Shown here: positions 1,811 to 54,041 of the stretch, piece after piece
Position numbering within the stretch: position 1 is the stretch's first letter
Layout: each line of letters starts with the position of its first letter
Sequence record: NC_018859.1
Source of the DNA: Escherichia phage ECBP2
Length of the DNA: 64,000 nucleotides
Reading direction: 5' to 3' (one strand)
Position numbers and translations under genes: made by a program
Notes under the pieces: model-generated
Seen by the model: only the letters and a program-made list of their open reading frames with translations
The model's database searches: none
Told to the model about the DNA's origin: nothing

Positions 1811-2029
1811 ATGAAAATGATGAAACAAATCAGTTATGGGTTAGCTTGTGTTGCTACCGGTTTTGCTGTGTCAGTGGCTGTTCCTGTTAACGCAGTGCAT
1901 CCTCTGGTAACACAACCTGCACCAGTTGAGAAATTGAGTGCATCATGTAAGCAGCGTACAATTCAGAATAATCTTGTGGTTATTTGTCCGGACTCTGATT
2001 CTAGTGCTCTGAGAAATATGCTTCAGTAA
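1811..2029 (+). CDS. small membrane/secreted protein immediately upstream of endolysin (holin candidate)
   Basis: 72 aa; N-terminal hydrophobic segment ISYGLACVATGFAVSVAVPV; AGGAG RBS upstream; position in lysis cassette. Confidence 0.4.
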   Translation: MKMMKQISYGLACVATGFAVSVAVPVNAVHPLVTQPAPVEKLSASCKQRTIQNNLVVICPDSDSSALRNMLQ

Positions 2030-2059
2030 TTTAGGGCTGACTGGAAAAGGAGGTGAAAA

Positions 2060-2551
2060 ATGGATAATGTCGCATTGCCACCGATACAACTGAGCTTAAG
2101 CCCAGAAGGGATGGAATTCATCATGAAGCATGAAGGTATGAGAACTCGTGCTTACCAAGATTCCGCAGGTATCTGGACGATATGTGTTGGGGCTACGCGC
2201 GATATGAATGGGTATCCAGTTAGACAGGGATTAACGTATTCTATAGAGGATTGTCTAGCTCTGCTAGATAGAGACACACAAGACTCTGTTCGTGCCACTC
2301 AGAAAAATATTAGGGTTCCTTTGCTAACCCACGAGTTTGATGCTCTCACCTCTTTCAATTTTAATGTAGGAGGAACAGCTCTATCAACTTCTAAGCTAAG
2401 GAAAGTGATCAACGGAGATGCTAAGGGTGATGTTTACTCAGAGTTCTTACGTTGGGATAAGATAACAGTCAGAGGTGTAAAACAACAGAGTCCGGGACTT
2501 CACAACCGAAGAGTTGCAGAAGCAGACCTATACACCATAGGTAAATATTAA
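2060..2551 (+). CDS. endolysin, GH24 lysozyme (muramidase)
   Basis: GMEFIMKHEGMRTRAYQDSAGIWTICVGAT matches the catalytic E...D...T region of T4/P22-type phage lysozymes; GGAGG RBS; no signal peptide. Confidence 0.85.
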   Translation: MDNVALPPIQLSLSPEGMEFIMKHEGMRTRAYQDSAGIWTICVGATRDMNGYPVRQGLTYSIEDCLALLDRDTQDSVRATQKNIRVPLLTHEFDALTSFNFNVGGTALSTSKLRKVINGDAKGDVYSEFLRWDKITVRGVKQQSPGLHNRRVAEADLYTIGKY

Positions 2552-8472: not shown

Positions 8473-9267
8473 ATGACAATACGCATGGGAGTGTCCGAGC
8501 TAGACCCTATGGTCCAGCAAGCTTCTAAAAAGTACGGCATTCCTGCTGCTCTTATCCATGCAGTTATTCAGAGGGAGTCTAGTGGTAGACCTTCTGTTGC
8601 ATCAGGTACAGGGCCGGTAGGTTTAATGCAAATAAGTAAAGGGCTGGCTAAGGATTATGGCTACAAACTAGAAGATCGTCTAGACCCTGCTAAGAATATT
8701 GATATGGGTGCTAGGTATATCAGAGACAACTTAAAAGCTTTTGATGGTGATGTGAAGAAAGCTATGGTGGGATATTCTGAAGGGACTGGTGGAGCAAAAC
8801 AAATGTTCGCTGGTAAGAAAGGATTCACACCTCAGGCTTTGGATTCTATGAACAATAAGAACTTTCTTCCTTTCTATACAGCTAATGATGCTGCTGGTCA
8901 GGTTGCTAACCCGATGGGTGCTTTACAGTCAGTACAGCCAGTGAATCAGTTCTCTCCTGAATTGGTTACTAGAGAAGGTGCTGCTAATGCTCCTACTCAG
9001 GCTGAGATTGCTGCTGCTAAGACAGGTGCTCTTGGTGGCTCCCCTACTGAGTTCTATTCTGATGATGTAGAGGAAGCTGGAGAAGATCAGAAGCCACAAC
9101 AGAACTTTGGTAATGCTGCACTAGCTGCTGCTGCAATGTTAGCGGGTAAGGCTCCTAAGTCTCAAACAGTTCAGAGAGCACATGCACCAACTCAAGCAGG
9201 TTCTCAATACAGCCCACATACACAAGCCGTTCTTAGACGTTTGGCAAGTGTTGGTGTTATTAAATAA
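8473..9267 (+). CDS. lytic transglycosylase (SLT domain) virion/ejection protein
   Basis: ESSGRPSVASGTGPVGLMQISKGLAKDYGY matches the SLT catalytic E-S...GLMQ...Y motif. Confidence 0.7.
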   Translation: MTIRMGVSELDPMVQQASKKYGIPAALIHAVIQRESSGRPSVASGTGPVGLMQISKGLAKDYGYKLEDRLDPAKNIDMGARYIRDNLKAFDGDVKKAMVGYSEGTGGAKQMFAGKKGFTPQALDSMNNKNFLPFYTANDAAGQVANPMGALQSVQPVNQFSPELVTREGAANAPTQAEIAAAKTGALGGSPTEFYSDDVEEAGEDQKPQQNFGNAALAAAAMLAGKAPKSQTVQRAHAPTQAGSQYSPHTQAVLRRLASVGVIK

Positions 9268-19785: not shown

Positions 19786-20377
19786 AGAGATCTCTCCGTG
19801 TCTGTGCAATACTGTACTCTAAATACTCCACTGCCTCTTCTACAGAACCATCATTAAAGAGAAGATAGGTTGAAAGGTTCGTGCCTTCAATATAGGAACG
19901 AGAGTCTCCTTCAAAAGTACATCCATCCCGATAAATCTGAATTACTCGAACATCGAAATGCTTTTCCAGTTCTTCAACTTCTGCTTTGAATCCACCATCA
20001 GAGAAAACGATAACATCGTTCTGTCCTAGCAGTTGTTGTTGTTGAATGCTGCTAACAGCAAGTTTACCCATGCAGGTATCCCCAAACATTGGCTTCAGAT
20101 AGTTCTCACTAGTTGAAATCATCAAATCTCGAACTGACTTACCGCCCCATTCAGGACGGTTATGTTCTTTCCACTCACGGTCGTTGTACAGCTCCATGAA
20201 CTCATGAAGAGGGAGACCTAATGCAGCAGCAGCCACTCGATACATAGGCTCCTTAAAAGCCTTTACATGAGGTCTAAACTCATCGTTACCGAGTGTCTTC
20301 TCTAACCAAGAATTAGCGATTGTATCTTTACCACAACCCGGTGGTCCATTCAGAATTACTACTAATGGTTTACTCAT
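19778..20377 (-). CDS. P-loop nucleotide kinase (dNMP kinase-like)
   Basis: Walker A VVILNGPPGCGKDT resembles the N-terminus of phage dNMP kinases. Confidence 0.5.
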   Translation of the reverse strand: MSKPLVVILNGPPGCGKDTIANSWLEKTLGNDEFRPHVKAFKEPMYRVAAAALGLPLHEFMELYNDREWKEHNRPEWGGKSVRDLMISTSENYLKPMFGDTCMGKLAVSSIQQQQLLGQNDVIVFSDGGFKAEVEELEKHFDVRVIQIYRDGCTFEGDSRSYIEGTNLSTYLLFNDGSVEEAVEYLEYSIAQTRRDLYA

Positions 20378-21027
20378 TATTGAATCATCCCTTGAAGATC
20401 TTCTTTATCAAAGTGCTTCTCTACTACCGCTTCATACAGATCACGATTCTCTGCATAACGGCGATAGAAAGTTCCGTGTGAAATTCCCAGCTCCTGCTGG
20501 ATGTGATCATGAGGTATTCCAAGGAAGAGCATAGAGAACATGCTTGCCATTTTCTTGGTATCCATAATATCACTTAAGTCTTGGAAGAAGAAAAAGATTC
20601 TAGATTCCAAGAATGGGTCTCCAGTAGAGTCATGCTTATCCATCGCAATCTCTAAAGGACTTTCCCACGAGTTCATCTCAGGAGGTCTAAACATATCAGC
20701 CTCTGGAATAGAGTAGATACGTCGGTCTCCAACTGTCTGACGGTTAGAACGAATTGACCAGATGATATTCTTAACACGATAAGTCATGTGCTCAATATCT
20801 TTTTCATCAGTGAGCAGAAGTTCTTCTTGCTTTGCAAACACAAAACGCCAAGCGTTCAGTAACACTTCCTGAGCAACATCCTCTGCTTCGTGATAATCTT
20901 TAATGTCATACATAAAATACTTATGCACAACTTTCCAGTTCTCCCGATAGAATTCATCGAAGGTTGGATAATACTTAATAGGAATGCCATGAATACGATA
21001 GCGTGTAGGTGTTGTCTTTTTCTTCAT
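20377..21027 (-). CDS. phage-encoded sigma factor-like protein
   Basis: [15 protein letters not shown] resembles sigma region 2; C-terminal [17 protein letters not shown] resembles a region-4 helix-turn-helix. Confidence 0.5.
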
Positions 21028-21051: not shown

Positions 21052-21276
21052 TTAAACTACGCAGAATAAATACATAGCCGTTTCAGGGCAAGGGATGGCT
21101 GTCTGAATGCCACTCACTTTAATCCACATATCCTCTTCAGAGTCATAATAGGCCCAATAGGATTGATCTCCATCTACAAAGAACTTAAAGGTTCGTCCCC
21201 AAATCTGGTTGTTATACTCCCATACTGCATGAAATTGAGTAACACCTTCTGGTATTGTAAGTTCCGCTCTGATCAT
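21052..21276 (-). CDS. hypothetical protein
   Basis: 74-aa ORF between the sigma-like gene and the spanins. Confidence 0.4.
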   Translation of the reverse strand: MIRAELTIPEGVTQFHAVWEYNNQIWGRTFKFFVDGDQSYWAYYDSEEDMWIKVSGIQTAIPCPETAMYLFCVV

Positions 21277-21533
21277 TGTATCCCTCTCTTCTTGAGAGCT
21301 TTCAGTAAACCATTATGGTTAGCAGCACAGGTTGTGTAGTTGTCCTGATACCACTCTAATGTTGTTGCAAATGCCACTCCCTGTGCACTCTGAAGCAAAG
21401 GGAGATCAACATCACATTCAGCTTTTAGGTTTGTTGGTAAGGGCACTAGCTGCCTGCTGTTGTCGCTCGTTGAACAAGCTGACAAATTCATCGCTAGCAC
21501 ACACATTGTAAAAAACTGGCTTAGTCTTTTCAT
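21273..21533 (-). CDS. o-spanin (Rz1-like outer-membrane lipoprotein)
   Basis: Signal peptide with lipobox LSAC; Pro-containing short mature part; starts inside the i-spanin gene in another frame. Confidence 0.5.
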   Translation of the reverse strand: MKRLSQFFTMCVLAMNLSACSTSDNSRQLVPLPTNLKAECDVDLPLLQSAQGVAFATTLEWYQDNYTTCAANHNGLLKALKKRGIQ

Positions 21534-21765
21534 AATGCATCTCTTTGTAAATAGTTTCTGTGTTCTTCTTCCAGTTTGATAAACCAGTTAGAACTTTCTG
21601 AGCTACTTCATCAGCAGCCTTAGCTCTCTCTATCTCTATCTCTTGCTGTTTCTTCTCTTGGTCAAGAGCATTACTATCATTTCGATATTGCTCAAACTTC
21701 ATACCACCAAAGAAAACCAGAGCTGTAAAGATTAAGAAGCCGATATTATTTTGAAGCTTTTCCAT
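21418..21765 (-). CDS. i-spanin (Rz-like)
   Basis: N-terminal TMD IGFLIFTALVFFGG followed by a charged coiled-coil; track start 21789 is a GTG inside the upstream terminator hairpin, ATG at 21765 has a GGAG RBS. Confidence 0.5.
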   Translation of the reverse strand: MEKLQNNIGFLIFTALVFFGGMKFEQYRNDSNALDQEKKQQEIEIERAKAADEVAQKVLTGLSNWKKNTETIYKEMHYEKTKPVFYNVCASDEFVSLFNERQQQAASALTNKPKS

Positions 21766-21777
21766 TTTAACTCCAAC

Positions 21778-21802
21778 GAAAAAAGCCACCCGAAGGTGGC
21801 TA
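21778..21802 (-). terminator. rho-independent terminator (AGCCACC-TTCG-GGTGGCT + U6 on - strand)
   Basis: Hairpin plus T-run after the gene ending at 21825. Confidence 0.6.
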
Positions 21803-21824: not shown

Positions 21825-22565
21825 TTAGAAAGGGCTGTCATCTTCTTCAAAGGTAGATTGCGGCTCTTCATTAATAGTAGGGATACTTGGAGTCGCGTCT
21901 TTCTGTTCAGTGTCAGAAGCGCGAGTAACTTCACGACCGGCCAGAGGAATGTTTTTAGCATCGTTAGCTTGAGTCAGAAGGTTACGTTGGAATGGAAACA
22001 TAGCTTGATAAGCAGCCAAGTTGGCGTCAGTTTCAGCGTACGGTTCGAAGAAGATAAGGTCGCTACGAGGAGCACCTACTGCATCACGATACTTGGTCGG
22101 GATTGGAGTGATGCTCTTGATGGAGTTTTTCTTCTCACCAGCTTTGTTGGTGTAAGAGTTAACTAGAATGTTGACAGGCTGACCAAGCAGCATATCTTTG
22201 AACCAACCCAAATCACCTTTCAGTGCTTGAACACTTGGGTCGATCATTTTAATTAGGTTCAGAATACCAGAGTTCTTAGCTCGTGGGTTTACATCGAAGG
22301 ATTTAAACTGACAAGCAGGACGTGGGTCCAATGCCTTACCATCACTATCTGTACCAGTTGCGTCAACACCAATCAGTTCAAATGCCAAGTCCATACGGAA
22401 AGCTGGGTTCTTAGGAGTAACTGCTTTGGTCTTAGGGTCAATCCAAGGGTCACGATTGTGAACACCTAAACCTACTACACGAACAATTCGTGCTTCGTAC
22501 TCGCCATCAGGGATTACATCGTAGTTGGATTTACGGGATACAGACAGTTCAGGGATCATAGACAT
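21825..22565 (-). CDS. putative ssDNA-binding protein (acidic C-terminal tail ending in Phe)
   Basis: 246 aa ending EEPQSTFEEDDSPF, like the acidic C-tails of SSB / T7 gp2.5; first gene after a TAATGTATATA motif. Confidence 0.4.
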   Translation of the reverse strand: MSMIPELSVSRKSNYDVIPDGEYEARIVRVVGLGVHNRDPWIDPKTKAVTPKNPAFRMDLAFELIGVDATGTDSDGKALDPRPACQFKSFDVNPRAKNSGILNLIKMIDPSVQALKGDLGWFKDMLLGQPVNILVNSYTNKAGEKKNSIKSITPIPTKYRDAVGAPRSDLIFFEPYAETDANLAAYQAMFPFQRNLLTQANDAKNIPLAGREVTRASDTEQKDATPSIPTINEEPQSTFEEDDSPF

Positions 22566-22622: not shown

Positions 22623-22633
22623 TATATACATTA
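22623..22633 (-). promoter_or_regulatory. TAATGTATATA promoter-like motif (- strand)
   Basis: Exact 11-mer about 55 nt upstream of the ATG at 22565. Confidence 0.5.
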
Positions 22634-22695: not shown

Positions 22696-22706
22696 TAATG
22701 TATATA
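22696..22706 (+). promoter_or_regulatory. TAATGTATATA promoter-like motif (+ strand, no downstream ORF)
   Basis: Exact 11-mer pointing rightward into about 200 nt of non-coding sequence and then antisense to the next gene. Confidence 0.35.
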
Positions 22707-24266: not shown

Positions 24267-24399
24267 AATATCCAGAGTTGTAGTTTAGGGCGCATTTCTC
24301 GGCCTCTTCTATGTCATCTGTGTTTAGGATATTAACCCAACCACCAACTTCATCAAAACCCTCTTCTTCTTCATTAAACCATACGCTGTATTTCTTCAT
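24220..24399 (-). CDS. small acidic protein (paralog of 23485-23652)
   Basis: Start taken at MKKYSVW, overlapping the upstream stop as ATGA. Confidence 0.4.
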   Translation of the reverse strand: MKKYSVWFNEEEEGFDEVGGWVNILNTDDIEEAEKCALNYNSGYYERNWEHDEILQSSL

Positions 24400-24575
24400 C
24401 TTGATAAGACTCTCCCCCAATCCTTGATGTAACAGCGACCGTCAACCCACTTTGTATCTGACTTAAATTCTTGAGACAGTCTCACTTCACAATCTTCTCT
24501 ACTGGCATCCCCTCCGATATCAATCAGATACAGGAATAGGGCTATACCTAAAGCCCAAAGAATTAACTTCTTCAT
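24396..24575 (-). CDS. small secreted/membrane protein (59 aa, below track cut-off)
   Basis: MKKLILWALGIALFLYLIDIGG...; start and stop both overlap neighbours as ATGA. Confidence 0.35.
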   Translation of the reverse strand: MKKLILWALGIALFLYLIDIGGDASREDCEVRLSQEFKSDTKWVDGRCYIKDWGRVLSR

Positions 24576-33387: not shown

Positions 33388-33573
33388 TTATAGCATACAA
33401 AGAATAATAACAAGAGGTAGTGTTATAGCAAAATGTACCAGAACAACACTACCTAGCTTGATAGCTTTAACATCCTCTTCTGCTGGGTTTTCTTTAATTG
33501 CTAAATTTCGAGCTTTATATATAACAGTACCAACTATTAACGACCACACGGCCCACACAATCAGTGAAATCAT
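33388..33573 (-). CDS. small two-TM membrane protein (paralog pair)
   Basis: Two hydrophobic segments around an ENP motif (AIKENPAEEDVKAIKLGSVVLV). Confidence 0.45.
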   Translation of the reverse strand: MISLIVWAVWSLIVGTVIYKARNLAIKENPAEEDVKAIKLGSVVLVHFAITLPLVIILCML

Positions 33574-33582
33574 ATCAAACCC

Positions 33583-33804
33583 TTATGCAGTCAACAGGTG
33601 GAGAAGGAAAGGAATGACAACAGAGAAAATTACCAGAGCAATGCTGCCATGTTTAATGGGTTTAGCATCATTCGGATTTTCTTTAAGCATCTGTTTCTGA
33701 GCCAGATAAACGATACCACCAACAAGAATTGCCCACACAGACCATACGATTGCTGAAAACATATTCACATCCTTATAAAGAAGTTCGCCCCACCTCTTAA
33801 ACAA
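33583..33804 (-). CDS. small two-TM membrane protein (paralog pair)
   Basis: MLKENPNDAKPIKHGSIALVIF aligns with the adjacent gene. Confidence 0.45.
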   Translation of the reverse strand: MFKRWGELLYKDVNMFSAIVWSVWAILVGGIVYLAQKQMLKENPNDAKPIKHGSIALVIFSVVIPFLLHLLTA

Positions 33805-35000: not shown

Positions 35001-35212
35001 TAGTAATGTACCTTTCCGCTGATATAGAAACGACCTGATTTAAAGTCTTGAGCTTTGTGGATAGTGATCTTATTAATTGTGCTTTCACAACTTAACAAGA
35101 ACTTCTTATGAGCGCGAGCTTCTTGACGGGTATTCCTAATACCCATTGACTCTGTACCACTGCTCCAGTGAATACGAACTACCCAACGTCTTTTCATTGT
35201 TCCAAACTCCAT
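35000..35212 (-). CDS. small basic protein, family member
   Basis: NTRQEARAHKK; 70 aa, adjacent to its paralog. Confidence 0.4.
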   Translation of the reverse strand: MEFGTMKRRWVVRIHWSSGTESMGIRNTRQEARAHKKFLLSCESTINKITIHKAQDFKSGRFYISGKVHY

Positions 35213-35403
35213 TATCTGTCAACCGATTTAGGGACAAACTGCATTACACAGACCTGATTACGAGGGAGATTTATTTCACAAGCGGCTCTTCTCGTCTCAA
35301 TCTTAACGCTAGAATCTGGACCAACGTTAGATATAAATACTCCCATAGCAAATGCCCCAACTACAAAACCAATAGCTAAGTAAGTAGCTTTTTCTTCTTT
35401 CAT
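35212..35403 (-). CDS. small membrane protein
   Basis: One TMD YLAIGFVVGAFAMGVFI. Confidence 0.4.
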   Translation of the reverse strand: MKEEKATYLAIGFVVGAFAMGVFISNVGPDSSVKIETRRAACEINLPRNQVCVMQFVPKSVDR

Positions 35404-51937: not shown

Positions 51938-52195
51938 TCAGTAGAAGGTGTGTGTAGAGTCGTCGTTCATAGATAACCAAACGAAGAAGACAATCACACA
52001 GAAAGCAATAATACCGAGAGTTGCAAGGATTATAGTGTTAGCTAATGTGATATCTAACACTCTTTGCAGGTACATAAAGAATTGTATGATACCACATAAC
52101 CCTAGCACGACCCCAATAACAATAAGGAGCCAGTACGTGCAGAGAAGGACTGCATCCAATAGTGATACATACTTTGGATCATCTTTATGTTTCAC
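51938..52195 (-). CDS. small multi-TM membrane protein
   Basis: Three hydrophobic segments. Confidence 0.4.
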   Translation of the reverse strand: MKHKDDPKYVSLLDAVLLCTYWLLIVIGVVLGLCGIIQFFMYLQRVLDITLANTIILATLGIIAFCVIVFFVWLSMNDDSTHTFY

Positions 52196-53231: not shown

Positions 53232-53486
53232 TTACTTAGTAATAAAGACTGTCACCTTATCCATTACCCAGCCTATCAACATAAGGAAAGGTAAGAAGAG
53301 GATAAAGATCAGCATAAAAGGCCAGAAGAATATTACCGTCCAAATAGAATATTCATCAGGCTTACCACTCCATGAGGAATGGAAGAAGTTGTAGAGTGTA
53401 TTGGTTTTGAAGCACCATTTAACTACAATGGCTGCTAACCACCAACCAATAACATAAATCAGGAGGACATACGCTGCTGTAATCAT
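53232..53486 (-). CDS. small multi-TM membrane protein
   Basis: Three hydrophobic segments, Trp-rich. Confidence 0.4.
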   Translation of the reverse strand: MITAAYVLLIYVIGWWLAAIVVKWCFKTNTLYNFFHSSWSGKPDEYSIWTVIFFWPFMLIFILFLPFLMLIGWVMDKVTVFITK

Positions 53487-53714: not shown

Positions 53715-54041
53715 TCACCACTCCTTACCTGTTGTTGTCACAGAGCCACCACACAGCTCACCACGGGAGATGAAGTCATAACGTGACCAATCACCTTGGG
53801 TAGCCATATCACGCTTTGCATAAGCCTTCTCGTCAACAGCACCGCCATTGGAACAAGAAGCACCAGCATAACGCATATCAATTTCACCACTAGGAATCTT
53901 CTCCCCGCTGTGCCAACGGGAAACACAGACACCTTCTACCGATAATGCACACCATCCATCAGGACGATGCTGTACGCAGCCTGTAAGAGCTACACAGGCG
54001 ATAAAGATACAGGTTAAGGTAATTACACCACCCCAGCTCAT
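53715..54041 (-). CDS. Cys-rich lipoprotein
   Basis: Signal peptide ending in lipobox LTGC; eight further Cys. Confidence 0.45.
   Translation of the reverse strand: MSWGGVITLTCIFIACVALTGCVQHRPDGWCALSVEGVCVSRWHSGEKIPSGEIDMRYAGASCSNGGAVDEKAYAKRDMATQGDWSRYDFISRGELCGGSVTTTGKEW

What the first reader, a model, noticed from the sequence alone, without database searches (positions are those of the whole stretch)
21273..21765. Spanin pair lies 19 kb from the endolysin, on the opposite strand
A classical overlapped Rz/Rz1-type pair (TMD plus coiled-coil i-spanin, with a lipobox LSAC o-spanin starting inside it in another frame) sits among replication genes next to the sigma-factor-like gene, while the endolysin is at 2060-2551 on the + strand. 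No obvious holin is adjacent to either. The lysis functions are therefore dispersed and probably expressed from different transcripts.
Basis: partly seen in the sequence, partly recalled or inferred. Interest (0 to 1): 0.45.

Follow-up and report, generated by a model that had tools for sequence, protein, structure and literature searches.

The report
Known phiEco32-type spanin pair, detached from endolysin
This is a real but ordinary, already catalogued pair of overlapping phage genes (i-spanin and o-spanin) that most likely breaks the host outer membrane at the end of infection. As in all phiEco32-like coliphages, it sits about 19 kb from the holin-endolysin genes, in the middle-gene block beside the phage sigma factor gene.

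Summary
On the minus strand, 21765..21418 encodes a 115-aa protein with one N-terminal membrane helix and a helical remainder (PHROG 1152 "Rz-like spanin", E=7e-37). 21533..21273 encodes, in the +1 frame, an 86-aa lipoprotein precursor (lipobox LSAC, Ser at +2). The two genes overlap by 116 nt.

Both frames are conserved in the eleven relatives compared, and the non-overlapping part of the o-spanin is under purifying selection (pN/pS about 0.2). Three relatives carry an HNH endonuclease gene between the two genes. There the lipoprotein signal peptide has been replaced, but the lipobox cysteine is kept.

The window is a phiEco32-like coliphage (Gordonclarkvirinae). Its spanins are already listed by Kongari et al. 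2018 and annotated in phage Paul, so nothing here is new.

ORF 1811-2029, directly upstream of the endolysin, is the family's annotated (untested) class III holin.

Spanins apart from the endolysin have precedents in T4, Privateer and a Felix O1-type relative. A conserved terminator sits directly before the i-spanin ribosome-binding site, downstream of a gp36-type middle-promoter motif. This suggests middle-phase expression by read-through, which is inferred, not shown.

The parts
21418..21765 (-). i-spanin gene (115 aa): an inner-membrane protein with one N-terminal membrane helix and a helical periplasmic domain carrying one Cys (C89).
   Evidence: ORF and sequence. phrog_1152 'Rz-like spanin', E=6.9e-37. 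AlphaFold2 single-sequence model is helical at residues 2-75, 78-90 and 92-110, mean pLDDT 77. 80% identical to Paul CPT_Paul_036, annotated 'i-spanin'.
21700..21744 (-). Codons 8-22 of the i-spanin: the predicted transmembrane segment IGFLIFTALVFFGGM.
   Evidence: The Kyte-Doolittle 19-residue maximum (1.43) falls at residues 4-22. The Paul homologue is annotated with a TMpred TMD at residues 8-23.
21273..21533 (-). o-spanin gene (86-aa precursor, 67-aa mature outer-membrane lipoprotein with Cys40 and Cys69).
   Evidence: ORF. phrog_2425, E=7e-25, and a weak match to phrog_456 'Rz-like spanin', E=0.004. tblastn matches annotated o-spanins in Paul, EK5, SU7, Yersinia vB_YenM_324 and Sasha. pN/pS about 0.2 in the non-overlapping part.
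21474..21485 (-). Lipobox LSAC (o-spanin residues 17-20). Cys20 is the predicted lipid-modified residue, followed by Ser at +2.
   Evidence: Match to the pattern [LVI][ASTVI][GAS]C. The Cys is conserved in all 10 relatives, including three whose signal peptide has been replaced. The homologous Paul protein is annotated with a LipoP SPII cleavage at 19|20.
21418..21533 (-). 116-nt dual-coding overlap: the i-spanin C-terminus in one frame and the o-spanin signal peptide plus N-terminus in the +1 frame.
   Evidence: Coordinates. The overlap length is the same in the 7 relatives that have the overlapped layout. Within the overlap the i-frame is the constrained one (pN 0.03-0.09 against pS 0.18-0.55), while the o-frame signal peptide is free to vary.
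21778..21801 (-). Intrinsic-terminator-like hairpin (AGCCACC-TTCG-GGTGGCT followed by TTTTTT) directly upstream of the i-spanin ribosome-binding site.
   Evidence: Terminator scan and RNA fold. The stem is invariant and the loop varies in the 11 genomes compared. Annotated as a terminator in Paul.
21771..21774 (-). Shine-Dalgarno GGAG of the i-spanin, 6 nt before the ATG.
   Evidence: Sequence. A possible pairing with a conserved upstream CUCC appears in the consensus fold, but without covariation.
22625..22633 (-). TAATGTATA, the phiEco32 gp36-holoenzyme promoter element. It is the nearest promoter motif upstream of the spanin genes, 868 nt before the i-spanin ATG.
   Evidence: Exact match. 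Conserved at -865 to -872 in all 9 genomes (window included) whose locus reaches that far. Consensus and start sites 6-8 bp downstream are from PMC8948821 and PMC4281155.
21825..22565 (-). 246-aa gene of unknown function (phiEco32 gene 40 equivalent) lying between the promoter motif and the terminator.
   Evidence: phrog_6599, E=4e-109. Synteny with relatives.
21052..21276 (-). 74-aa ORF immediately after the o-spanin. Its ATG overlaps the o-spanin stop (ATGA). This slot is variable among relatives.
   Evidence: phrog_30479. phiEco32 and Paul carry a macro-domain gene in this position instead.
20377..21027 (-). Phage sigma factor gene (phiEco32 gp36 equivalent), downstream on the same strand.
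   Evidence: phrog_1740, E=9e-45. Weak PF04542 match. Annotated as such in relatives.
1811..2029 (+). Putative holin (72 aa, one N-terminal hydrophobic segment), adjacent to the endolysin. It is part of the same lysis system.
   Evidence: phrog_11161 'holin', E=8e-47. Annotated 'putative holin' or 'holin class III' in phiEco32 and Paul. Whether the segment is a membrane anchor or a cleaved signal peptide is unclear.
2060..2551 (+). Endolysin (a lysozyme, 163 aa) with no N-terminal hydrophobic export domain.
   Evidence: PF00959, E=5.4e-31. phrog_7. Kyte-Doolittle maximum only 0.83.

Best explanation
The locus encodes a two-component spanin in the overlapped gene layout.

Proposed mechanism:
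- The i-spanin is anchored in the inner membrane by its N-terminal helix and extends a helical domain into the periplasm.
- The o-spanin is exported, lipid-modified on Cys20, cleaved by signal peptidase II and sorted to the outer membrane, because it has Ser rather than Asp at +2.
- The two proteins bind through their C-terminal regions to form covalently stabilised complexes that span the periplasm through the peptidoglycan mesh.
- These complexes stay inert until the holin (probably 1811-2029) lets the soluble endolysin (2060-2551) destroy the peptidoglycan. They then fuse or disrupt the two membranes and release the progeny.

Because spanins are harmless while the wall is intact, they need not be co-regulated with holin and endolysin. 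Here they sit in the middle-gene block. They lie downstream of a gp36-type promoter motif and a conserved terminator, and upstream of the sigma factor gene. The holin-endolysin pair lies among the late tail genes on the other strand.

Shown here: the ORFs, membrane helix, lipobox, cysteines, homology, purifying selection and gene order. Inferred: lipid modification, complex formation, membrane disruption, and middle-phase expression by terminator read-through.
For: - Family match: phrog_1152 'Rz-like spanin', E=7e-37, for the i-spanin.
- Predicted fold: the AlphaFold2 model is almost entirely helical.
- Lipoprotein features: lipobox LSAC and Ser at +2. The homologous Paul proteins are annotated i-spanin and o-spanin, with TMpred and LipoP support.
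- Literature: PhiEco32 is listed among overlapped two-component spanins in Kongari et al. 2018, in the JH2 i-spanin family and in the NJ01/ECBP2/KBNP1711/PhiEco32 o-spanin group (PMC6139136).
- Association with lysis genes elsewhere: distant o-spanin homologues (35-40% identity) sit in ordinary holin-endolysin-spanin cassettes in Yersinia phage vB_YenM_324 and Salmonella phage Sasha.
- Selection: pN/pS about 0.2 on the non-overlapping o-spanin codons.
- Natural experiment: in SU7, Bas87 and EK010 an HNH gene separates the pair and the o-spanin signal peptide is a different sequence. The lipobox Cys and the mature protein are kept.
- Co-occurrence: the 4-kb locus DNA, the holin and the close (at least 60% identical) o-spanin matches are each found in 97 phage records. 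I did not check that these are the same 97 records.
- Transcription context: the TAATGTATA motif and the terminator are conserved. gp36 is described as a middle-gene product, and middle genes are assigned to this block (PMC8948821; PMC4281155).
Against: - No member of this particular spanin family has been tested experimentally, as far as the searched papers show.
- Pfam and NCBIfam have no model that recognises either protein.
- The best PHROG match for the o-spanin (2425) is labelled 'unknown function'.
- A stricter PROSITE-like lipobox pattern fails because of Asn at -4.
- The terminator leaves no room for a dedicated promoter, so the level and timing of expression are unknown.
- I could not read the phiEco32 transcription paper (PMC3275717).
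Confidence: 0.9

Rival explanations
1. The pair is an envelope complex with a non-lysis role. For example, it could be a superinfection-exclusion or receptor-masking lipoprotein, as known for some early phage lipoproteins, with an inner-membrane partner. This would fit its position among middle genes rather than with the lysis genes.
For: It lies in the middle or replication block beside the sigma factor gene, far from the holin and endolysin. The best PHROG match for the o-spanin has no assigned function.
Against: The i-spanin matches a spanin family strongly. Homologues of both proteins occur as the last genes of ordinary lysis cassettes in other phages. The overlapped pair layout and the conserved periplasmic cysteines are spanin hallmarks (PMC6139136). 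T4 and Privateer also keep genuine or predicted spanins away from the endolysin.
Confidence: 0.05
2. Only the i-spanin gene is real. The +1-frame ORF with a lipobox is an accidental by-product.
For: Most GenBank records annotate only a truncated 41-57-aa 'hypothetical protein' without the signal peptide.
Against: The 145-nt extension beyond the i-spanin stop shows pS 0.70-0.85 against pN 0.16. The start, lipobox Cys and two further Cys are conserved in all relatives. When the overlap is broken by the HNH insertion, a new signal peptide with a lipobox is present. There are 175 phage records with homologues.
Confidence: 0.02
3. The pair is a retained but dispensable spanin, and outer-membrane disruption is carried out by another factor encoded next to the endolysin. 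One candidate is the 1811-2029 product, if it is really a secreted peptide rather than a holin.
For: 1811-2029 has a signal-peptide-like N-terminus (PVNA|VH). It has a weak match to a spanin PHROG (phrog_812, E=0.006). A published DeepTMHMM analysis found only a signal peptide in a homologue (PMC13417854).
Against: Strong purifying selection and universal retention of the spanin pair. The endolysin has no export signal, so some holin is required, and 1811-2029 is the only candidate with a holin family assignment.
Confidence: 0.03

Closest known systems
phiEco32 genes 39 and 38, and phage Paul CPT_Paul_036 and CPT_Paul_035 (Kuravirus, Gordonclarkvirinae)
   Same: They are orthologues: about 80% (i-spanin) and 76% (o-spanin) amino-acid identity. 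They share the 116-nt overlap, the terminator directly upstream, the promoter motif about 870 nt upstream, and the position upstream of the sigma factor gene. They are catalogued as overlapped two-component spanins in PMC6139136.
   Different: The gene between the o-spanin and the sigma factor differs: a 74-aa ORF here, a macro-domain gene there. The N-terminal few residues of the i-spanin also differ. The window is only about 93% identical at the DNA level to its closest records, TH42 and Bas88.
T4 PseT.3 / PseT.2 spanins
   Same: It is a two-component spanin whose genes are not near the holin and endolysin genes (PMC6139136 Fig. 8 legend). The sizes are similar (117 aa and 83 aa).
   Different: The T4 pair has the separated gene layout, not the overlapped one. 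No sequence similarity was found. In T4 the holin and endolysin are also apart from each other, whereas here they are adjacent.
Lambda Rz / Rz1
   Same: The functional class and protein anatomy are the same: a type II inner-membrane protein with a helical periplasmic domain, plus a small outer-membrane lipoprotein encoded in the +1 frame (PMC6139136).
   Different: Lambda's Rz1 is fully embedded in Rz, and the pair is the last part of a contiguous lysis cassette. The Pfam scan of these proteins returned no spanin family.
Spanin pairs of Yersinia phage vB_YenM_324 (Peduoviridae) and Salmonella phage Sasha
   Same: The o-spanins are homologous (35-40% identity over more than 90% of the length), and the i-spanin of vB_YenM_324 also matches over about half its length. 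They have the same overlapped layout.
   Different: There the pair directly follows the holin and endolysin in a normal cassette.
T5 versus Shivani/phiR201 spanins (homing endonuclease between the spanin genes)
   Same: [quoted passage not shown] It converts an overlapped pair into a separated one while keeping a lipoylation signal, as described for T5 and Shivani in PMC6139136.
   Different: The enzyme is HNH here and GIY-YIG there. The window itself lacks the insertion.

Membership tests
Two-component spanin, overlapped architecture (Summer 2007; Kongari 2018) | i-spanin: a small protein with a single N-terminal transmembrane domain (type II, N-in/C-out) | tested here: met
   The only hydrophobic stretch is at residues 8-22. 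It lies within helix 2-75 of the AlphaFold2 model. The Paul orthologue has a TMpred TMD at 8-23. Topology itself was not tested.
Two-component spanin, overlapped architecture (Summer 2007; Kongari 2018) | i-spanin periplasmic domain is predominantly alpha-helical (coiled-coil-like) | tested here: met
   AlphaFold2 single-sequence model: helices at 2-75, 78-90 and 92-110, mean pLDDT 77. Oligomeric coiled-coil formation was not tested.
Two-component spanin, overlapped architecture (Summer 2007; Kongari 2018) | o-spanin: signal peptidase II signal with a lipobox Cys, no Asp at +2, and a small mature protein | tested here: met
   MKRLSQFFTMCVLAMNLSA|C with LSAC, Ser at +2 and a 67-aa mature part. 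The Paul orthologue has a LipoP SPII score of 18.0 at 19|20. A stricter PROSITE-like pattern fails on Asn at -4.
Two-component spanin, overlapped architecture (Summer 2007; Kongari 2018) | The o-spanin gene starts inside the i-spanin gene in the +1 frame and extends beyond its stop | tested here: met
   116-nt overlap and a 145-nt extension.
Two-component spanin, overlapped architecture (Summer 2007; Kongari 2018) | Periplasmic cysteines available for intermolecular disulfide bonds | tested here: met
   i-spanin C89 and o-spanin C40 and C69 are conserved in all 10 relatives. Disulfide formation cannot be tested here.
Two-component spanin, overlapped architecture (Summer 2007; Kongari 2018) | Sequence membership in a recognised spanin family | tested here: met
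   phrog_1152, E=7e-37, for the i-spanin. The o-spanin matches annotated o-spanins by tblastn. PhiEco32 orthologues are listed in PMC6139136.
Two-component spanin, overlapped architecture (Summer 2007; Kongari 2018) | Required for outer-membrane disruption; complements lambda Rz/Rz1 mutants | not testable with these tools
   This needs genetics. No experimental test of this family turned up in the searched papers.
Lambda Rz and Rz1 sequence families (Pfam) | A significant match to a Pfam Rz or Rz1 model | tested here: not met
   The Pfam scan at E<=0.1 returned only a sub-threshold DUF3290 hit for the i-spanin and nothing for the o-spanin. The pair is a functional analogue, not a member of these sequence families.
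Contiguous lysis cassette (holin-endolysin-spanin, lambda type) | Spanin genes adjacent to, and co-transcribed with, the holin and endolysin | tested here: not met
   The spanins are at 21273-21765 (-) and the holin and endolysin at 1811-2551 (+), 18.7 kb apart on opposite strands.
Class III holin (for ORF 1811-2029) | A small membrane protein with one stable transmembrane domain, next to the endolysin, able to permeabilise the inner membrane | tested here: inconclusive
   Adjacency and the phrog_11161 'holin' match are met. The hydrophobic segment at 7-27 ends in a signal-peptidase-like PVNA|VH, and a homologue was predicted to have only a signal peptide (PMC13417854). Function is untested.

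The most novel reading that the evidence does not exclude
The spanin genes may be deliberately uncoupled from the late holin-endolysin genes and gated by the invariant terminator hairpin, possibly together with a flanking CUCC/GGAG pairing that hides the ribosome-binding site. They would then be made at a low level from the middle phase onward by read-through, on the same transcript as the sigma factor gene. In addition, the dual-coding overlap appears to be a recurrent target for an HNH homing endonuclease. The way it resolves, with about 45 nt duplicated and a new lipoprotein signal peptide read from another frame of the endonuclease gene, would be a live example of how spanin gene layouts interconvert.
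Probability: 0.35. Interest if true: 0.3.

Novelty: already known. Interest (0 to 1): 0.12.

Why it matters
It matters little for biology. It confirms that this window carries the standard phiEco32-type lysis layout.

Practical value for annotation:
- Most GenBank records of this subfamily, including phiEco32, ES17 and the Bas88, Bas89 and Bas94 records, annotate the o-spanin only as a truncated 41-57-aa hypothetical protein with no signal peptide.
- The holin assignment in this subfamily rests on position only and deserves a test, because the endolysin has no export signal of its own.

Tried and rejected
- Pfam and NCBIfam scans of both spanins gave no meaningful hit. Membership therefore rests on PHROGs, tblastn and the literature.
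- A PROSITE-like lipobox pattern failed on Asn at -4. The standard four-residue lipobox pattern matched.
- I tried to read the two primary phiEco32 papers (PMC2587145, PMC3275717). Neither is held, so the temporal class of genes 38 and 39 comes from secondary sources and map position.
- I looked for a dedicated promoter between the terminator and the i-spanin. There are only about 12 nt, and no sigma-70-like or TAATGTATA-like site.
- I tested whether the hairpin region has a conserved structure that hides the ribosome-binding site. A CUCC/GGAG pairing is predicted, but there are no compensatory changes, so nothing can be concluded.
- I tested whether the HNH insertion in Bas87, EK010 and SU7 is a recognisable intron. 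Rfam gave no match at E<=0.1. Both spanin ORFs are complete without splicing, so I read it as a free-standing endonuclease gene, although the Bas87 record annotates the i-spanin as a two-piece join.
- I screened other small membrane proteins for holin families (33388-33573, 33583-33804, 51938-52195, 53232-53486, 24396-24575, 35212-35403 and others). None matched.
- The hairpin upstream of the holin (about 1723-1738) lacks a T-run and did not pass the terminator scan.

Full report
**What the window is**

The 4 kb around the finding is 91-93% identical to E. coli podophages of the phiEco32 group (Gordonclarkvirinae: Kuravirus and Suseptimavirus). Examples are TH42, Bas86-88, SU7, EK010 and 4E8; 97 phage records match. 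Gene order around the locus is the same as in phiEco32, Paul and Bas88.

**Checking the observation**

On the minus strand, an ATG at 21765 is preceded by GGAG 6 nt upstream. It opens a 115-aa ORF that ends at 21418. A second ATG at 21533, in the +1 frame, opens an 86-aa ORF that ends at 21273.

The first protein has one hydrophobic stretch (residues 8-22) and a charged remainder with a single Cys at position 89. A single-sequence AlphaFold2 model is helical at residues 2-75, 78-90 and 92-110, with mean pLDDT 77.

The second protein begins MKRLSQFFTMCVLAMNLSA|CSTSD. It has a lipobox LSAC and Ser at +2. The mature part is 67 aa, with a short Pro-containing stretch (PLP) near its N-terminus and two further Cys.

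The genes overlap by 116 nt, and the o-spanin runs 145 nt past the i-spanin stop.

**Is it more than chance?**

- Both ORFs, the lipobox Cys, C89 of the i-spanin, and C40 and C69 of the o-spanin are present in all ten relatives I extracted.
- In the non-overlapping part of the o-spanin, comparisons with Paul, phiEco32, ES17, Bas94, EcoN5 and Bas89 give pS 0.70-0.85 against pN about 0.16. That frame is therefore under purifying selection.
- Inside the overlap the i-frame is the constrained one (pN 0.03-0.09), while the o-frame signal peptide drifts. This is expected if only the lipobox matters there.
- A natural experiment points the same way. In SU7, Bas87 and EK010, an inserted segment of roughly 480 nt (about 430 nt between the two spanin ORFs) carrying an HNH endonuclease gene lies between the two genes:
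  - About 45 nt of the former overlap is duplicated.
  - The upstream copy keeps the i-frame and the downstream copy keeps the o-frame.
  - The old o-spanin start has decayed to a 17-codon ORF.
  - A different signal peptide (MLTKKKQKSCLVILLASSLMAC) is read from another frame of the 3' end of the endonuclease gene. It again ends in a lipobox Cys at the same junction with the mature protein.

**What it is**

- The i-spanin matches PHROG 1152 "Rz-like spanin" at E=7e-37.
- The o-spanin matches PHROG 2425 (function unlabelled) at E=7e-25 and, weakly, PHROG 456 "Rz-like spanin".
- tblastn finds the o-spanin in 175 phage records and the i-spanin in 412. Many are annotated as spanins, in Paul, EK5, SU7, Felix O1-like phages, Erwinia Kolesnikvirus, Yersinia vB_YenM_324 and Sasha.
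- In vB_YenM_324 and Sasha the homologous pairs are the last genes of ordinary holin-endolysin-spanin cassettes. This ties the family to lysis.
- Phage Paul's record annotates the orthologues as i-spanin (TMD 8-23) and o-spanin (LipoP SPII cleavage 19|20), with a terminator directly upstream.
- Kongari et al. 2018 already list PhiEco32 among the overlapped two-component spanins. Its i-spanin is in the JH2 family together with Felix O1-type phages. Its o-spanin is in a group with NJ01, ECBP2 and KBNP1711 (PMC6139136).
- The Pfam scan returned no spanin family for either protein, so they are not recognisable members of the lambda Rz or Rz1 sequence families. NCBIfam has no model for them either.

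**The rest of the lysis system**

The endolysin at 2060-2551 (+) is a Phage_lysozyme domain protein (E=5e-31). It has no N-terminal hydrophobic segment, so it needs a holin.

Directly upstream, 1811-2029 encodes a 72-aa protein that matches PHROG 11161 "holin" at E=8e-47. It occurs in 97 phage records, all Escherichia or Shigella phages or unnamed phages, the same number as match the locus DNA. It is annotated "putative holin" in phiEco32 and "holin class III" in Paul.

The assignment is positional, however. The hydrophobic segment ends in a signal-peptidase-like PVNA|VH. A 2026 paper on a Kuravirus reports only a signal peptide, and no TMD, for the homologue (PMC13417854). None of the other small membrane proteins in the window matches a holin family.

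The holin-endolysin pair lies between a tail fibre gene and a baseplate-like gene. This is the late-gene placement noted for Kuravirus phages in PMC7881722 and PMC4281155. The whole-genome annotation of Bas88, the closest annotated relative, contains no further lysis gene. A second, complete cassette outside the window is therefore unlikely.

**Transcription context**

- The spanins are on the opposite strand from the holin and endolysin, so different transcripts are certain.
- The phiEco32 gp36-holoenzyme promoter element, tAATGTAtA, has start sites 6-8 bp downstream (PMC8948821; PMC4281155).
- This element occurs exactly at 22633..22625 (-), ahead of the 246-aa gene 22565..21825. It is conserved at -865 to -872 relative to the i-spanin ATG in every genome whose locus reaches that far.
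- Between that gene and the i-spanin lies a classical intrinsic-terminator hairpin followed by six T, at 21801..21778 (-). Its stem is invariant and only the loop varies among the eleven genomes compared.
- Only about 12 nt separate the T-run from the ATG, and they include the GGAG. There is no room for a separate promoter.
- Downstream on the same strand come a variable small gene, whose ATG overlaps the o-spanin stop, and then the sigma factor gene. gp36 is described as a middle-gene product (PMC8948821). The SU10 paper assigns this whole block to the middle class.
- My inference is that the spanins are made from the middle phase onward by read-through of the terminator. This was not measured here, and I could not obtain the primary phiEco32 transcription paper.
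- A possible CUCC/GGAG pairing that would hide the ribosome-binding site has no covariation support.

**Why separation is not surprising**

Spanin complexes are thought to be restrained by intact peptidoglycan until the endolysin acts (general spanin model, summarised in PMC6139136). Their timing therefore need not match that of the holin. Precedents:

- The T4 spanin genes are not near its holin and endolysin genes (PMC6139136 Fig. 8 legend).
- Privateer's spanins are about 12 kb from its endolysin (PMC7881722).
- In an Erwinia Felix O1-type relative, no holin or endolysin is annotated within about 2.5 kb of the homologous pair.

**Verdict**

The finding is real and correctly described, but it is already catalogued and is the standard layout of this subfamily.

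Two small points may be worth keeping. Most database records truncate the o-spanin to a fragment that lacks its signal peptide. The HNH insertion in three relatives gives a clean example of an overlapped spanin pair being converted into a separated one.

Noticed in passing
L002 (SU7), L005 (Bas87, i-spanin 691-1032, o-spanin 1462-1728), L012 (EK010). This corresponds to the window overlap at 21418-21533.: An HNH endonuclease gene is inserted in the spanin overlap of three relatives. About 45 nt of the overlap is duplicated. The old o-spanin start has decayed. A new lipoprotein signal peptide is encoded in another frame of the 3' end of the endonuclease gene. The Bas87 record annotates the i-spanin as a two-piece join, but Rfam finds no intron and both ORFs are complete without splicing.
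   Followed up: partly
window 22625-22633 (-) and 22696-22704 (+): Two exact copies of the gp36-type promoter element TAATGTATA lie back to back in one intergenic region. The plus-strand copy points antisense into the phosphoesterase gene. It is conserved in 7 of the 8 relatives checked. There are five exact matches in the window against about 1.3 expected.
   Followed up: partly
window 1811-2029 (+): The annotated 'holin' has an N-terminus that looks as much like a cleavable signal peptide (PVNA|VH) as like a membrane anchor. The 44 aa beyond it include two conserved Cys. A published prediction for a homologue found only a signal peptide. The true holin of this subfamily may still be unidentified.
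   Followed up: partly
window 33388-33573 and 33583-33804 (-): Two tandem paralogous small proteins, each with two predicted transmembrane segments, both match phrog_9296 (unknown function). They are the most holin-like alternatives by topology, but have no family support.
   Followed up: partly
window 53715-54041 (-): A 108-aa early-region ORF has a lipoprotein-like N-terminus (…IACVALTGC, lipobox LTGC). It matches phrog_4281, function unknown. It could be a second phage lipoprotein unrelated to lysis.
   Followed up: no
L001 (Bas88_0028), L007 (phi32_38), L008, L009, L010, L011: In most deposited genomes of this subfamily the o-spanin is annotated only as a 41-57-aa 'hypothetical protein'. 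That fragment starts after the signal peptide and lipobox, presumably because gene callers avoid the overlap.
   Followed up: yes
window 8473-9267 (+): A second cell-wall-degrading enzyme, a protein with an SLT lytic transglycosylase domain (E=8e-24), lies among the structural and ejection genes. It is probably a virion-borne entry enzyme and not part of the lysis system.
   Followed up: no
window 21052-21276 (-), compared with L006 and L007: The slot between the o-spanin and the sigma factor gene is variable. It holds a 74-aa ORF here and in Bas88 and SU7, a macro-domain (Appr-1-p processing) gene in phiEco32, Paul and probably EcoN5 (an unannotated ORF of identical length), and nothing in ES17 and Bas94.
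   Followed up: no
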